64,000 nucleotides of DNA, taken from contig SXOO01000203.1 in the NCBI GenBank assembly GCA_005776725.1, positions 2,658-66,657 on the forward strand. Reading direction: 5' to 3'. Source of the DNA: Pseudomonadota bacterium. Lineage in GTDB: Bacteria; Myxococcota_A; UBA9042; GCA-2863065. Shown in pieces: positions 24,801 to 39,297 of the stretch (positions are counted from its first letter, which is position 1; each line of letters begins with the position of its first letter). The notes beneath the pieces were generated by a model. It saw only the letters and a program-made list of their open reading frames with translations, did not search any database and had not been told where the DNA came from. A program made the position numbers and the translations under genes.

Positions 24801-27316
24801 CTGACCCAGCCGGAGGCGATGGCCTTCGCGTACAGCGCCGCGCCGCACGCGGCCTTGTCTTCCCGGATGCAGAATGGCGCGGGCTGGGCGTCGCTGTCGT
24901 CACAGGTCTTCACCCAGTCGGCCACGACGTCGTAGATGTTAAGGTAGGCGGCTTTCGATTGTGCCTGCCCTTCCGTCGTGGACACCCCCCCCTTGGCCAG
25001 GTTGGCGAGCGACTCGAGGGCGGCCTGGATGAACCCGGAGTTGAAGGTCAGGACCCGTGGAAAGGCAGCCGGACAGGGGGCGGAGCCCGCGGTGCACTTC
25101 TTGGAGACGACCCCCTCACTCTCGGTGAGGTCGAAGCGCCTGGCCACGTCGAGGTAGGTGGAGAACGCGGCCGCGCTCGTGAAGTTGGAGGCCGCCTCAA
25201 CCGCCTCGGTCACGTTGGCGCACGCCGGTAGCACCGGCGCACCGCCGACGTCGTCGATGTCCGGGCCCGTCGGGACGTCCGCCGAGGAGAGGTTCAGAGA
25301 CTCGAGCTGCTCGGCGGTCTCGAGGGTCTGCAGCAGCGGGTCGTCGAACTCGATCGGAGTGCCGTCTGCGACAGACTGCTCGAGGACGAAGCTGCCCGTG
25401 AGCGTGAGCAGGTGGTCGAGGAGGCCGTAGATGGACTCGGTGTAGGTGCCATGGAAGGTGCCCGTGGCGTCCTCGAAGGGCCCCGCGAACTCGATCTGGC
25501 GGCGAATGCGGCGGCCGAAGGGGTTTCGAGCCTGGAGCTTCGTGGTGTCATCGCAGGCCGAGTCGTCCTCATCGAGGCAGAAGTCGGCCGCGATGTCGGC
25601 GAAACCAACGATACGGAGGCGCTTCTTGTCGGCCTGGTAGATCCCGACGAAGCGGACGTCGGACTCGCCAACCGGCCAGGCGGGTGGTGCGAAGCCGAAG
25701 GAACTTTCGACGTCGAGGCGGCCCGTGACTCGGAAACCCTGGTTCGTATCAACGAGTGACCCCTGCACGGTCGGCACGTTGTTCTCGCCCATCAGGTCGA
25801 CCCACTTCACGACCTCGTCACCCACGTACAGGTCGATTGCGACTCGGAACGGGCGCTGCGGGTTGAGCGCGCCCGCACCGGTCCCACGCCGGACCGTGAG
25901 AGTCCCCGTGTATCTCCCAGATGGCGAGGCCTTCGTGTAGACCACGTCGATGATGTCCGACTCGCCGTTGTCGAAGATCGCCCTGACCTGAGCGGGGTAG
26001 ATCCCCGGCGTGAGGCTCCCCGCCACGGCATCGTCGAGCGTGACGGCCACTCGGGAGCCCCCGAGCGTGTGGACCGTGCCAAAGGGGCGGTCGAGGCGCA
26101 GCCACTGTTCCTTGGGCTCGATGCGGCAGTCGTCCTGGAGGGCGTTACACTCGGCCTCTGTCTCGCCATCGGGCCTTGCGGCGCTGTCGGCGCAGCTCAC
26201 GAAGGTGCGGCCGATGCACCGCGTGTCCCGCTTGGTGCCGTAGATGGTCTCGAGGCGATAGCCGAAGACGACGCTCGGGTCGTTCACGACCTGCTTCCGG
26301 GTCACGAGGTCCATGATCGCGATCCCCGTGCTGTCCGCGGTCCGGACGCCGTCGAGGGTCAGCTCGTCGCGCAGGAAGCGGACCGAGTAGCGCTGAGGGT
26401 CGACCTCGTCGCCAGCCTGGGCGCCGGGCAGTGACACCGGCCGGCAGCGGTTGGTCTCGGAGCAGGTCCATGCCCCATCGGGACAGTCGGTGGCGCGGTA
26501 GCAACGCGCGGCGCACGCGCCGAGGAAGCAGTAGGCGCCGGGCGGGCACGACGCGTCGGTCTCACAGGTGAGCGCCGCGAGGTCGGGGACTTCCACACAC
26601 TTACCGAGGCGGTCGTCGCAGTCTTCCGCGAACCCGGTGCACTCGCGGTAGAGCGAGCTGACGCCGACCTCGCGGGACACGATCGCGCCGCACTCGCGAA
26701 CGCACGTGTGGCGGCCGACGTCGCAGTAGGAGCCCCGCCCGCACGCGGCGTCGCCATCGCACCAGATGAGGTCGGGCGCGCCGCTGCATCCGGGGGTCGC
26801 CGTGTCTGCGCAGCGCGGCTGCTCGAGGAAGGACAGCACGCAGAGGTCGAGGTCGAAGATGTCGAAGTCCTGATCGCTGTCCTGGTCGAGCAGTGCGTTC
26901 AGGTTACGCGAGAGCGAGCAGGTGTTGGCCGAGAAGGCGGGGTCGGTGCCTTCGAGGTGGTGCCGGACGGCCAGGTCGAGGAGGTTCAGGTCGATCCGGA
27001 AGGAGGTCGGTTTACACCACCAGATCCGCGATCCCGTCGCCTGAACATGCTCCACGCAGGTCTCGCCCGTCGAGCAGAGGGACCGGTTCGCGACCGACGG
27101 GTTCGACGGGTCGCCGCAGCCCACCTGGCACGTGCCGACGCCTGGGCCCATGACCACACACGACTTGGCGAAGGGATGGCCGGCGCACGCGGCGGCGTTC
27201 GCGCACGGGGTGCCCGCACCGCCGGACGAGGTGCACGCGTTCGGCAGCGCAAGCGTCGGCTCGGCGGCATGTGCGGCGCCGGTGAGGAGGACCAGGGCCA
27301 GCGCGAGTCGGCTCAT
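21812..27316 (-). CDS. Exported 1834-aa protein of unknown family (Cys-rich N-terminus, long helical core, beta-rich C-terminus)
   Basis: ATG at 27316 overlaps the upstream TGA (ATGA). Signal peptide MSRLALALVLLTGAAHAAEP. Coding-type composition is uninterrupted. I recognised no family motif. Confidence 0.9.
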   Translation of the reverse strand: MSRLALALVLLTGAAHAAEPTLALPNACTSSGGAGTPCANAAACAGHPFAKSCVVMGPGVGTCQVGCGDPSNPSVANRSLCSTGETCVEHVQATGSRIWWCKPTSFRIDLNLLDLAVRHHLEGTDPAFSANTCSLSRNLNALLDQDSDQDFDIFDLDLCVLSFLEQPRCADTATPGCSGAPDLIWCDGDAACGRGSYCDVGRHTCVRECGAIVSREVGVSSLYRECTGFAEDCDDRLGKCVEVPDLAALTCETDASCPPGAYCFLGACAARCYRATDCPDGAWTCSETNRCRPVSLPGAQAGDEVDPQRYSVRFLRDELTLDGVRTADSTGIAIMDLVTRKQVVNDPSVVFGYRLETIYGTKRDTRCIGRTFVSCADSAARPDGETEAECNALQDDCRIEPKEQWLRLDRPFGTVHTLGGSRVAVTLDDAVAGSLTPGIYPAQVRAIFDNGESDIIDVVYTKASPSGRYTGTLTVRRGTGAGALNPQRPFRVAIDLYVGDEVVKWVDLMGENNVPTVQGSLVDTNQGFRVTGRLDVESSFGFAPPAWPVGESDVRFVGIYQADKKRLRIVGFADIAADFCLDEDDSACDDTTKLQARNPFGRRIRRQIEFAGPFEDATGTFHGTYTESIYGLLDHLLTLTGSFVLEQSVADGTPIEFDDPLLQTLETAEQLESLNLSSADVPTGPDIDDVGGAPVLPACANVTEAVEAASNFTSAAAFSTYLDVARRFDLTESEGVVSKKCTAGSAPCPAAFPRVLTFNSGFIQAALESLANLAKGGVSTTEGQAQSKAAYLNIYDVVADWVKTCDDSDAQPAPFCIREDKAACGAALYAKAIASGWVSLSSLQATEAGVGFTGENAVFCDETIALDQSLCPTVPGTVNARRALFTLQEYTRFWSSLAQARKFGADRARSDAFLTLFRNQFNPFVAGTARAYKDEKLVYALRKYDELVRQFVGPFDAWTLLRFPMRAFLSAGQEWVDLMNTVFSDRMNILADVVDMRRRVFMTTDNNDFRFAKHLMQHEYLAQVFLMEVQARWQEELNFYTGSAGRIFEQGQAVLDQLRTTRNGVGLVPNRVFFESTSPGITNWVALRNRIVGDDGAGGLLAAANEAVDDAIGNMQGALSDLDALEDSLKDANGTFASTLRDLCGDERLTDTNGACAPTSSTGLLTPAALSACYCNQLFNLAQSKDLQALKHEVDCTLKGGTGCAGVVQLDCPPDKVGGAVDAAQCSTMKKTFTNKAAAILGTTAGDGSGTTGAAVCAFDTAVTTISVDGKSRYCLGGAMRGKLQDRARLDLERRLILEELRIVATKFDQTYAKFAELYGFKVTTLVLDRTKDIAFHIAGLFKKSTDDILEAVTKAAGAVDCVFVAGLAVGTDCPGGAASSAITVSAASVSTTINTVIENVTFAVDQALEVVKGGFEIRGEALGYIAEMQALSHEVSGLLLKLQLLTQESYNASLELGTMRAEAQRAADGWRRDVTTIASHLVGRESGFVLVADHLVGTASAAFRDLVLLSHETAMAFIHFYNLSGDEAFELVNLAQNSTTLSDVADFVAVLDSKAEYYCAVQGIDCDFASNVLRLRVSLRDRLFPNLRDIVDGKTGKTITAGEQFHNAITSPPYMRRRIRGAYTVDQIELPFIVDLAIQEQSPGGPMWMVDPFGCNQLLTSQNDASLANGNNGTVAVEVIGDNLDGPALHYQLLRGPTDFIRACAPGNVQQDFGTDPVLIYPIRTHIVGYPPKSPYDDLEPVPEYSTTSSILSACMATPAEEGTVNENDCWRHFARDRSLASPDWKLMIPVRVDGAKTDTAWITGDDAPKDEKPLIEDVIVYFRYRGRPVQEN

Positions 27317-38329: not shown

Positions 38330-39297
38330 GGCGAGCCCCGAACCGGCGCGGGTCCCAATACGTCCACGGGCCACACCACCACCGGCTGGTCGAGGGCTTC
38401 GCCCCATAGGGCCTCGTCCGAAGCACGAGGCGCGAGGGTGCCCTCTCGTGGGACCAGCGACGCGACGAGCGGCAGCGCGGGGGGCGCCAGGGCCGTGTCG
38501 GGCGCTACCCGGAAGTAGACCCACCGCCCCTCGGGGAGGGGCGTGGTGCCGCCCGTGGACATCAGGAGGGTGCGGACGTTGCCGTCGGGGAGGGTCTGCC
38601 ACGCGGCGCCCGCCTCGGGGTCGATGAAGAGCGACTTGCCCGCCTCCACGAGCGGCGTGCCCAGGCCAACCTCGAGGACCTGCCACGGTCCATTGAAGGC
38701 GAGCCGTACGTCAGCGAGATGGGGCGCTGGCGCACCGGATTCTCCCTGGTATTCGACGGCCAGCACGACGGACACCAGGGCGCCGTCGACCACATCCCGA
38801 TCGACGACGACCAGACGAAGCGCGCAGTCGTCGCAGCTCACGTCGATCGGACACGGGCCACAGGTCCCGCCACAGGAGTCCTCCTGAGTGCAGTGTTTCC
38901 CGTCACAGTCGGGGACGCAGGCACAGGTGCCACCATCGCACCAGCTGCCTCCGTCGCACGTGCCGCACGAGATCCCGCAGTGGTCACCACACTCCTGACC
39001 CAAATCGCCACAGCTCGTCGCGCAGTTCTCGACGCACGTGCCGGTAGGGTCGCAGACCTGTCCGCGGGAGCAGGCCCCACACGACCCGCCGCAGCCGTCA
39101 TCACCGCACGTTCGGGAGGAACAGGAAGGGACGCACGGTGCGCTGTCGGACGTCGCCAACTCCGGGGCCGGCGCGGACGACCCAGAGCATGCACCCAGGC
39201 TCAGCAGCACCAGCAGTGTCCCGGCGAATGACGGGCCGCCGCATGCGGAGCCAGGTTGAACCCGACGAGGTCGGCTCGTCGCAGCGGTCGTCAGCAC
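38326..39297 (-). CDS. Lipoprotein (about 323 aa) with a CGDDGCGGSCGxC-type Cys-rich region plus a cohesin-like C-terminal module; first gene of the operon
   Basis: GTG at 39297 has AAGGAG 7 nt upstream (the maximal ORF reaches a GTG at 39363). Lipobox LLSLGAC. Cys-rich region at 38848-39123. The module VSVVLAVEY..LADVRLAF..DGNVRTLLMS lies at 38404-38826. Confidence 0.7.
   Translation of the reverse strand: MLTTAATSRPRRVQPGSACGGPSFAGTLLVLLSLGACSGSSAPAPELATSDSAPCVPSCSSRTCGDDGCGGSCGACSRGQVCDPTGTCVENCATSCGDLGQECGDHCGISCGTCDGGSWCDGGTCACVPDCDGKHCTQEDSCGGTCGPCPIDVSCDDCALRLVVVDRDVVDGALVSVVLAVEYQGESGAPAPHLADVRLAFNGPWQVLEVGLGTPLVEAGKSLFIDPEAGAAWQTLPDGNVRTLLMSTGGTTPLPEGRWVYFRVAPDTALAPPALPLVASLVPREGTLAPRASDEALWGEALDQPVVVWPVDVLGPAPVRGSP

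What the first reader, a model, noticed from the sequence alone, without database searches (positions are those of the whole stretch)
27313..38826. A recurring cohesin-like beta-sandwich module of about 100-140 aa, shared by three proteins of the operon and standing alone as one small lipoprotein
Four segments share the same residue pattern. It runs: an alternating hydrophobic strand, then a.L.dv.l.f/y, then ..aGK.., then DG.lRvlv.., and finally Gp...l.f.
- Operon gene 1, at 38404-38826: VSVVLAVEY..LADVRLAF..AGKSLFI..DGNVRTLLMS..GRWVYFRV.
- The 2784-aa giant, at 37295-37597: IVHLWYDY..LLDLYVEY..YGKEVAH..DGTLRVSVYD..GPIVELVF.
- The same giant, at 35300-35632: VLRVNVVF..HDVLLQFDP..LPGKVAS..DGLVRVQVTS.
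- Essentially the whole 165-aa lipoprotein, at 27313-27810: IAVDIAYA..AELLIDVD..AGKDVVV..DGSLRVLVFT..GPLARLHL.

By eye this pattern is like cohesin domains. Several neighbouring giants carry Ca-binding DxDxDG loops, which are chemically like dockerin repeats. Together these raise the idea of a cohesin-dockerin-style scaffolded surface complex.
Basis: inference. Interest (0 to 1): 0.62.

Follow-up and report, generated by a model that had tools for sequence, protein, structure and literature searches.

The report
Unannotated cohesin-fold module in Myxococcota operon
Three proteins of one tightly packed operon (two small lipoproteins and a 2784-residue secreted giant) share a real, previously unannotated domain of about 135-160 residues whose predicted structure matches cohesins, the docking modules of cellulosomes, but no dockerin partner is present, so the docking function is still only inferred.

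Summary
The repeat is real for three of the four segments. These are the C-terminal domain of gene 1, residues 243-402 of the giant, and the mature 165-aa lipoprotein. Evidence: profile tests (lipoprotein vs gene-1 family P=2e-10; gene-1 vs giant-A profiles P=3.5e-5) and cross-species BLAST hits. A null of 90 random windows from the operon proteins reached only score 16.3.

The fourth segment (giant 900-1010) is not significant by itself (score 15.0). Its orthologous positions in two related giants are (P about 1e-5). In this window it looks interrupted by a Ca-loop insert and an RCC1 block of about 340 aa.

AlphaFold2 models (pLDDT 88-89) match solved cohesins almost exclusively (Foldseek E down to 1.3e-5, TM up to 0.73). 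At sequence level Pfam Cohesin is only a sub-threshold signal.

The family has 438 clusters at 50% identity, is unnamed, and comes from Myxococcota metagenomes. In all eight loci examined, the gene-1 type lipoprotein sits directly upstream of a giant that carries the module.

No canonical dockerin was found. The only Ca loops are of TSP3 type.

Best reading: a divergent cohesin-fold docking or anchoring module. The partner is unknown.

The parts
38326..39363 (-). Gene 1: lipoprotein with a lipobox (LSLGA|C, Cys59 of the long ORF), a Cys-rich stalk and a C-terminal cohesin-fold domain. The likely true start is the GTG at 39297, preceded by AAGGAG.
   Evidence: ORF. Orthologue alignment showing lipobox, CxxC repeats and the C-terminal domain. 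Start context. The gene caller of the source contig called only the last 171 aa (P0122).
38368..38826 (-). Cohesin-fold module of gene 1 (residues 180-332).
   Evidence: AF2 pLDDT 88.0, pTM 0.82. Foldseek top hits are cohesins, E=3.3e-4, TM 0.5-0.62. Family profile.
29975..38329 (-). 2784-aa secreted giant. Its ATG overlaps the stop of gene 1 (ATGA). It carries PD40 and RCC1 repeats; orthologues carry Laminin_G_3 and TSP_3.
   Evidence: Orthologues.
37730..37786 (-). Single TSP3_bac-like Ca loop (DCADPDGDSLPTWLDTALG, residues 182-200), about 45 residues upstream of module A. Conserved in 7 of 8 orthologous giants. It is a candidate ligand element, which is speculative.
   Evidence: Alignment. 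Motif scan. Coordinates.
37124..37603 (-). Module A of the giant (residues 243-402).
   Evidence: Conserved in all orthologous giants. hhalign vs gene-1 family: P=3.5e-5 profile-profile, score 27.2 against a null maximum of 16.3. The representative search hits P0208 at 244-386. The consensus hits PF00963 at E=0.072.
35318..35617 (-). Segment B of the giant (residues about 905-1004): a degenerate copy of the N-terminal two thirds of the module.
   Evidence: Alone it is not significant (score 15.0; pairwise p=0.011-0.5). Orthologous segments in L001 and L003 are significant.
35477..35557 (-). Cys-flanked double Ca-loop insert inside segment B (CWDLDGSGVGTPDEDLDEDGTYTVADC, residues 925-951). Conserved in five orthologous giants.
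34190..34291 (-). Putative continuation of module B (RRPLVPGTIATIRLL...VVVSDNSATQIFV, residues 1347-1380), after an RCC1-containing block of about 340 aa that the giants of L001, L006 and L007 lack.
   Evidence: BLAST to L001 across the gap: E=1e-15. Gap in the orthologue alignments. The composite with both inserts removed aligns over 99 columns but only at score 19.0, P=0.019, so this is a hypothesis.
27813..29978 (-). 721-aa secreted protein. The N-terminal ~370 aa are conserved in related operons; the C-terminal half is variable and repeat-like. No family match.
27313..27810 (-). 165-aa lipoprotein (lipobox AIS A|C, Cys18). Residues 36-165 (27316-27705) are the cohesin-fold module.
   Evidence: AF2 pLDDT 89.4, pTM 0.84. 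Foldseek: ranks 1-25 are all cohesins, E=1.3e-5, TM up to 0.73. Orthologue in L007 at the same operon position: 38% identity, E=2.5e-19. No close homologue in the 5.8-billion-protein index.
15637..27316 (-). Rest of the operon: the 1834-aa, 981-aa and 1076-aa secreted proteins. The last carries 8 TSP_3 repeats and RCC1 repeats. All are joined by ATGA overlaps or gaps of 2-3 nt.

Best explanation
The segments are copies of one divergent domain family that no library names and that has the cohesin beta-jelly-roll fold.

In this operon the domain appears in four places:
1. As the head of a lipid-anchored protein with a disulfide-rich stalk (gene 1).
2. Near the N-terminus of the giant secreted protein that is translationally coupled to gene 1.
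3. As a degenerate, insertion-bearing internal copy in the same giant.
4. As a minimal lipoprotein consisting of the domain alone.

Most likely it is a protein-protein docking module. On this reading the two lipoproteins are membrane anchors that hold the giant proteins of the operon at the cell envelope, in the way anchoring scaffoldins hold cellulosome parts. The ligand is not a canonical dockerin.

Shown: homology of three copies, the cohesin-like predicted fold, lipoboxes, conserved gene order and coupling.
Inferred: that the domain binds protein, which protein it binds, and where in the envelope it sits.
For: - Homology.
- Fold.
- Weak but specific Pfam Cohesin signal.
- The gene-1 type lipoprotein lies directly upstream of a module-bearing giant in all 8 loci examined: L001-L003 and L005-L008 plus the window (L004 is a second contig carrying the L003 arrangement).
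- ATGA start/stop overlaps at four junctions and gaps of 2-3 nt at two, which fits co-translated partners.
- The same lipobox plus Cys-rich stalk carries other functional heads in over 100 Myxococcota proteins (peptidase M23, trypsin, TIG, lectin C, redoxin). The cohesin-fold domain therefore sits where a working head domain is displayed.
- The residues conserved across 151 family representatives (D39, R41, K64, D81-G82, Q85, G100, R101, A132-P133) lie mostly on or at the ends of strands 3, 5 and 6. In cohesins (established knowledge) these strands form part of the dockerin-binding sheet.
Against: - No dockerin or other shared docking tag was found in the window or in related loci.
- Pfam Cohesin is never reached at its threshold.
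- A profile comparison against three CipA cohesins is not significant, P=0.13.
- The fold evidence rests on predicted models, not solved ones.
- The stand-alone lipoprotein is absent from at least one related operon, L008, so it is not essential to the system.
- The mapping of conserved residues to a face was done from strand assignment only, without coordinates.
Confidence: 0.5

Rival explanations
1. The modules are true cohesins and the TSP3/DxDxDG Ca loops of the neighbouring giants act as their dockerins, forming a Ca-dependent scaffolded surface complex.
For: - Cohesin-like fold.
- 8 TSP_3 repeats in the last operon protein and TSP3_bac in a neighbour.
- A conserved single TSP3_bac-like loop just upstream of module A in 7 of 8 giants.
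- A conserved Cys-flanked double Ca loop inside module B.
- Naturally truncated dockerins are reported for Ruminococcus (title of PMC12270676, listed; the paper was not read).
Against: - No Pfam Dockerin_1 hit anywhere.
- No paired loop-helix F-hand module in the EF-loop scan.
- TSP3 repeats are common in secreted bacterial proteins that have no cohesins (established knowledge).
- No binding data exist.
Confidence: 0.15
2. The module is a carbohydrate-binding or adhesin beta-sandwich (CBM2/CBM3-like). It binds exopolysaccharide or the surface of prey or substrate rather than a protein partner.
For: - CBM2 (1exg, 6qfs) and CBM3 (4b96) also appear among the Foldseek hits.
- Cohesins and CBM2/3 share one structural superfamily (established knowledge).
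- The giants carry Laminin_G_3 and propeller domains typical of adhesins.
Against: - Cohesins outrank CBMs throughout. The first CBM is at rank 26 for the lipoprotein model, with TM 0.51/0.61 against 0.73/0.70 for cohesins.
- Conserved positions are charged or glycine and proline residues, not a strip of aromatic residues.
Confidence: 0.2
3. The module is only a structural spacer domain spread by duplication within the operon, with no specific ligand. Alternatively the copies pair with each other (gene-1 head with giant module A).
For: - Beta-sandwich domains commonly serve as spacers in giant surface proteins.
- Copy B is degenerate and tolerates large insertions.
- The gene-1 / giant pairing is invariant (8 of 8 loci), which would also fit heterotypic pairing of like domains.
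Against: - A spacer role does not explain a lipoprotein that consists of the domain alone.
- It does not explain a family of 438 clusters in which the domain is the only non-stalk part.
- It does not explain strongly conserved polar residues.
Confidence: 0.13
4. The shared pattern is chance similarity in Ala/Arg/Gly/Val-rich proteins encoded by DNA of 70% G+C.
For: Segment B alone is within the null. Composition is strongly biased.
Against: for the other three copies. The independent AF2 models converge on one fold.
Confidence: 0.02

Closest known systems
Cohesin modules (Pfam PF00963), including non-cellulosomal ones: Clostridium perfringens GH84C/GH33 cohesins 2jh2, 2vo8, 2w1n; Archaeoglobus fulgidus 2xdh; type I cohesins 1g1k, 2vn5, 1anu
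   Same: - Size of about 140 aa.
- Nine-strand jelly-roll in the predicted models.
- Foldseek E down to 1.3e-5 and TM up to 0.73.
- A strand-3 motif of the type 'aD-h-x-h-x-Y/h-D/G..x-L' aligns in register with the cohesin 'CDFVFRYDPNVLEI', but without statistical support.
- Occurrence on cell-anchored proteins.
   Different: - Sequence match to PF00963 is below threshold (best E=0.025 to 0.072).
- No dockerin partner found.
- Host is a diderm Myxococcota MAG, not a cellulolytic Firmicute.
- Anchor is a lipid (lipobox) rather than SLH or sortase.
- No glycoside hydrolases in the operon.
Anchoring scaffoldins of cellulosomes (OlpA, OlpB, OlpC, SdbA, ScaE type)
   Same: A small envelope-anchored protein that displays one cohesin-type module. 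It is encoded next to very large modular secreted proteins.
   Different: - The anchoring chemistry differs.
- The cargo proteins have no known enzymes.
- The cargo itself carries the same module instead of a dockerin.
CBM2 / CBM3 carbohydrate-binding modules
   Same: Same structural superfamily. They appear lower in the fold-search lists.
   Different: Lower TM and E-values than cohesins. No conserved aromatic binding strip.
Putative cohesin-like and dockerin-like modules reported in Gram-negative genomes (Saccharophagus degradans, PMC2386152; survey by Peer et al. 2009, cited in PMC6030884)
   Same: Distantly related cohesin-like modules in a non-cellulosomal Gram-negative bacterium that also uses lipobox anchoring and TSP3 repeats. 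Binding was never shown there either.
   Different: Those were found by sequence similarity to cohesins. The present family is not detected by Pfam. It forms its own large, operon-linked family.

Membership tests
Cohesin domain (Pfam PF00963) | Sequence match to the family profile at or above the gathering score (24.1 bits) | tested here: not met
   No hit at E<=0.1 for any window protein. 4 of 146 relatives hit weakly, best E=0.025. The giant-A consensus scores 13.7 bits, E=0.072. hhalign against three CipA cohesins gives P=0.13.
Cohesin domain (Pfam PF00963) | Nine-stranded beta-jelly-roll superposable on solved cohesins | tested here: met
   Tested on AF2 models only. Lipoprotein model: TM 0.73/0.70 to 1g1k_A, E=1.3e-5 to 2jh2, ranks 1-25 all cohesins. 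Gene-1 model: TM 0.5-0.62, E=3.3e-4.
Cohesin-dockerin system | A cognate dockerin (PF00404, duplicated F-hand Ca loop plus helix) in partner proteins | tested here: not met
   No Dockerin_1 in 21 window proteins. None in the precomputed Pfam lists of 8 related loci. The strict EF-loop scan finds only TSP3-type and isolated loops. Only 64 kb of the genome is visible.
Cohesin-dockerin system | Ca-dependent high-affinity binding of module to partner | not testable with these tools
   Needs pull-down, ITC or SPR, or at least complex structure prediction.
Bacterial lipoproteins | Signal peptide ending in a lipobox [LVI][ASTVI][GAS]C | tested here: met
   Read from the sequence: gene 1 has LLVLLSLGA|C, and the lipoprotein has LLAVLLAISA|C. 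Orthologues keep the Cys. No predictor was run.
CBM2/CBM3 carbohydrate-binding modules | Better structural match than to other members of the superfamily, and a conserved aromatic binding face | tested here: not met
   CBMs rank below cohesins. Conserved positions are D, R, K, Q, G, A and P. No Pfam CBM hit.
TSP3 / TSP3_bac Ca-binding repeats (proposed partner) | Pfam PF02412 / PF18884 match in neighbouring proteins | tested here: met
   The 1076-aa protein matches TSP_3 at E=1.3e-48 with 8 stretches. The 1988-aa protein matches TSP3_bac at E=3.5e-9. This shows only that they are present, not that they bind the module.

The most novel reading that the evidence does not exclude
This would be a dockerin-independent cohesin system of diderm bacteria. 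Lipid-anchored cohesin-fold heads capture giant secreted proteins in one of two ways: by binding a single TSP3-type Ca loop (a 'half dockerin', such as the conserved DCADxDGDxLPxWLE element next to module A), or by pairing with the giant's own cohesin-fold module. That would define a widespread Myxococcota surface-assembly system (438 clusters at 50% identity) unrelated to polysaccharide degradation.
Probability: 0.15. Interest if true: 0.75.

Novelty: new variant of a known kind. Interest (0 to 1): 0.48.

Why it matters
Cohesins are among the strongest known protein-protein connectors, and they are used in biotechnology. A large cohesin-fold family that sequence methods miss would extend the cohesin principle beyond cellulosomes and beyond Gram-positive bacteria. 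Here the fold sits on lipoproteins of uncultured Myxococcota, always next to giant secreted proteins of unknown function. That gives a concrete handle, in the form of small and expressible 130-aa domains, on how these giant proteins are held at the cell surface. If the partner turns out not to be a dockerin, it would be a new connector pair.

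Tried and rejected
- Pfam, NCBIfam and PHROGs scans of the operon proteins gave no cohesin, dockerin or other informative family for gene 1, the 721-aa, 165-aa, 1834-aa and 981-aa proteins.
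- PDB sequence searches with the lipoprotein and with the family profile returned only spurious repeat proteins, Pizza and TPR designs with no stretch passing on its own. The 721-aa, 1834-aa, 981-aa proteins and the giant had no PDB relatives.
- The word-indexed search with the lipoprotein found only itself.
- A profile-profile comparison with a shallow alignment of three CipA cohesins (sequences verified against 1anu, 1aoh and 3kcp) aligned in register but without significance.
- An all-against-all BLAST of the window's large proteins, looking for a shared docking tag, found only Cys-rich repeats and RCC1.
- I first read L001 as a fusion of the 721-aa and 1834-aa proteins without a lipoprotein gene. 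The 'fusion' runs through a stretch of masked bases (X run) followed by a signal peptide, so it is an assembly gap and says nothing about the lipoprotein.
- Joining the two halves of segment B across the RCC1 block raised the score only from 15.0 to 19.0.
- The paper by Peer et al. 2009 could not be read.

Full report
**What is there.** The window has about 70% G+C. On the minus strand, from 39363 to 15637, lie seven genes:
- gene 1 (345-aa ORF; probable start GTG at 39297 behind AAGGAG);
- a 2784-aa giant;
- a 721-aa protein;
- a 165-aa lipoprotein;
- proteins of 1834, 981 and 1076 aa.

Four junctions are ATGA start/stop overlaps and two are gaps of 2-3 nt. All products begin with signal peptides. 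Gene 1 (LSLGA|C) and the 165-aa protein (AISA|C) have lipoboxes.

**Checking the observation.** The quoted strings are at the stated coordinates.

With window sequences alone, local alignment against 1000 shuffles gave:
- giant-A vs lipoprotein: p=7e-5;
- gene 1 vs lipoprotein: p=8e-4;
- gene 1 vs giant-A: p=0.006;
- segment B: p=0.011 against the lipoprotein and about 0.5 against the other two.

Gene 1 has full-length orthologues (P0002-P0010). A related operon came from a Myxococcales MAG (L001), and seven further loci were fetched. Profiles built from these orthologues gave:
- lipoprotein vs gene-1 family: 96.9%, P=2e-10 over 106 columns;
- gene-1 family vs giant-A family: P=3.5e-5;
- a gene-1 HMM that did not contain the lipoprotein recovered it at E=1.4e-9 among 824 six-frame ORFs, with no other copy in the window.

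Plain BLAST between species also crosses the families. Gene-1 orthologues hit the window lipoprotein at E=3e-7 to 4.5e-4, and giant orthologues hit window gene 1 at about 3e-5.

A null of 90 random 150-aa windows from the same proteins reached at most score 16.3. The observed scores were 63.5, 27.2 and 29.2. Three copies are therefore homologous.

**Segment B.** On its own it scores 15.0, which is within the null. The orthologous stretch of the L001 and L003 giants scores 37.6 and 33.2, and a three-sequence profile gives P=1.7e-6.

All orthologues carry a Cys-flanked double Ca loop here (CWD...DEDxxGDGxW/YxxxDC), placed between the second and third strands.

In the window's giant the alignment to orthologues breaks at about residue 1030 and resumes at about 1349. 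The intervening block holds RCC1 repeats. The sequence after it (RRPLVPGTIATIRLL...) continues the L001 module. Removing both inserts gives an alignment in register over 99 columns, but only at P=0.019. I treat B as a degenerate copy that is probably interrupted by insertions. This is shown through orthology only.

**Fold.** AlphaFold2 was run without templates on an 18-sequence alignment. It gave pLDDT 88.0 / pTM 0.82 for the gene-1 domain and 89.4 / 0.84 for the mature lipoprotein. Both models are all-beta with nine main strands.

Foldseek against the PDB returned cohesins almost exclusively:
- Lipoprotein model: ranks 1-25 are all cohesins, E=1.3e-5, TM 0.73/0.70 to 1g1k_A and 2vn5_A.
- Gene-1 model: E=3.3e-4, TM 0.5-0.62.
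- CBM2, CBM3 and pilin domains come lower in both lists.

At sequence level no window protein hits Pfam Cohesin. PF00963 is nevertheless the only family hit by more than two of 146 relatives (4 hits, best E=0.025). It is also the only hit of the giant-A consensus (E=0.072, positions 15-116 of 139). A comparison with three verified CipA cohesins was in register but not significant.

The fold claim is therefore supported on predicted models. Family membership by sequence is not met.

**The family.** An exhaustive HMMER search of 1.84 billion representatives found 438 clusters at E<=1e-3, 209 at 1e-10 and 68 at 1e-30. Nearly all are proteins of 150-400 aa with the module at the C-terminus. The full-length ones are lipobox plus Cys-rich stalk proteins like gene 1. 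Many short ones look like truncated gene calls. The source contig's own call for gene 1 is one of these (P0122, 171 aa). None carries a name other than 'hypothetical protein', and all come from metagenomes or Myxococcota MAGs.

The Cys-rich stalk alone is shared with over 100 other proteins whose heads are peptidases, lectins, TIG domains or redoxins. The module therefore occupies the position of a displayed functional head.

**Context.** In all eight loci examined the gene-1 type lipoprotein is immediately followed by a giant (1664 to over 3500 aa) that carries module A near its N-terminus. The eight are L001-L003 and L005-L008 plus the window; L004 is a second contig with the L003 arrangement.

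L007 reproduces the whole order, including a 160-aa lipoprotein orthologue of the stand-alone module (38% identity, E=2.5e-19). L008 lacks it. L001 has an assembly gap at that place.

A single TSP3_bac-like loop (DCADxDGDxLPxWLE) is conserved about 45 residues upstream of module A in 7 of 8 giants.

**Partner.** None of the 21 window proteins scanned hits Pfam Dockerin_1, and no related locus has Dockerin in its precomputed Pfam list. A strict EF-loop scan finds only TSP3-type loops (in the 1076-aa and 1988-aa proteins) and two isolated loops in the giant. No shared short tag links the operon proteins. That these loops act as dockerins is untested.

**Interpretation.** The best-supported reading is a divergent cohesin-fold docking module that ties giant secreted proteins to lipid-anchored receptors. 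The support for this is:
- the fold;
- its display on a stalked lipoprotein;
- the invariant, translationally coupled pairing with a module-bearing giant;
- conserved polar residues on strands 3, 5 and 6, strands that in cohesins contribute to the dockerin-binding sheet (established knowledge; I had no coordinates to verify the face).

Binding itself, the partner, and the compartment are inferred. The rivals are:
- TSP3 loops acting as dockerins;
- a carbohydrate-binding role;
- a spacer or self-pairing role.

Chance is excluded for three copies.

**Novelty.** Non-cellulosomal cohesin-like modules are known, including unproven ones in Gram-negative bacteria (Peer et al. 2009 as cited in PMC6030884). 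This family is not captured by Pfam or NCBIfam. It is large, it is tied to a conserved giant-protein operon in Myxococcota, and it has no dockerin in sight. I rate it a new variant of a known kind, of moderate interest.

Noticed in passing
window 34292-35240 (giant residues about 1030-1346): An RCC1-repeat block of about 320-340 aa is present in this giant but absent from the orthologous giants of L001, L006 and L007. It sits inside what is module B in those orthologues, so it is a possible nested domain insertion.
   Followed up: partly
L001 about 10950-11400 (ORF 9902-16861): The 2319-aa 'fusion' of the 721-aa-like and 1834-aa-like proteins reads through a run of masked bases (X in the translation), followed by a fresh signal peptide (MNRYPASILALLVALLAF). 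It is an assembly gap, not a fusion.
   Followed up: yes
window 38326-39363; P0122: The gene caller of the source contig called gene 1 as only its last 171 aa, from an internal GTG. This drops the lipobox and the Cys-rich stalk. Many ~150-aa members of the family may be similar truncated calls or contig fragments.
   Followed up: partly
window 38830-39190 (gene 1 residues about 60-178) and the hits: The CxxCGxxCGxC-type Cys-rich stalk after a lipobox is shared by over 100 Myxococcota proteins with unrelated heads (Peptidase_M23, Trypsin, TIG, Lectin_C, LTD, FGE-sulfatase, redoxin). It looks like a generic display stalk for lipoproteins.
   Followed up: no
window 39721-41445 (-): The 574-aa protein just upstream of the operon combines eukaryote-like Ca-binding EGF domains (EGF_CA, cEGF, EGF_3) with two Lcl C-terminal domains (E=1e-30).
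   Followed up: no
window 1210-7023 (+), 6900-12866 (+), 18864-21809 (-): Two further giants on the plus strand carry Dicty_CTDC Cys-rich repeats. The 981-aa operon protein shares these repeats with the 1937-aa protein (BLAST E=5e-12), although Pfam reports nothing for it.
   Followed up: no
window 27813-29978 (-) and orthologues in L006-L008: In the 721-aa family only the N-terminal ~300-370 residues are conserved. The C-terminal halves are repeat-like (e.g. GGLTVExGGAxIERGG in L007) and differ between operons. The small lipoprotein gene follows it in the window and in L007 but not in L008.
   Followed up: partly
window 42254-63000: The flanking genes look like housekeeping or envelope genes: a glycogen-phosphorylase-like protein, a sulfatase, MlaE with a STAS domain, MlaD and a trypsin-like protease. 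None are polysaccharide-degrading enzymes.
   Followed up: no
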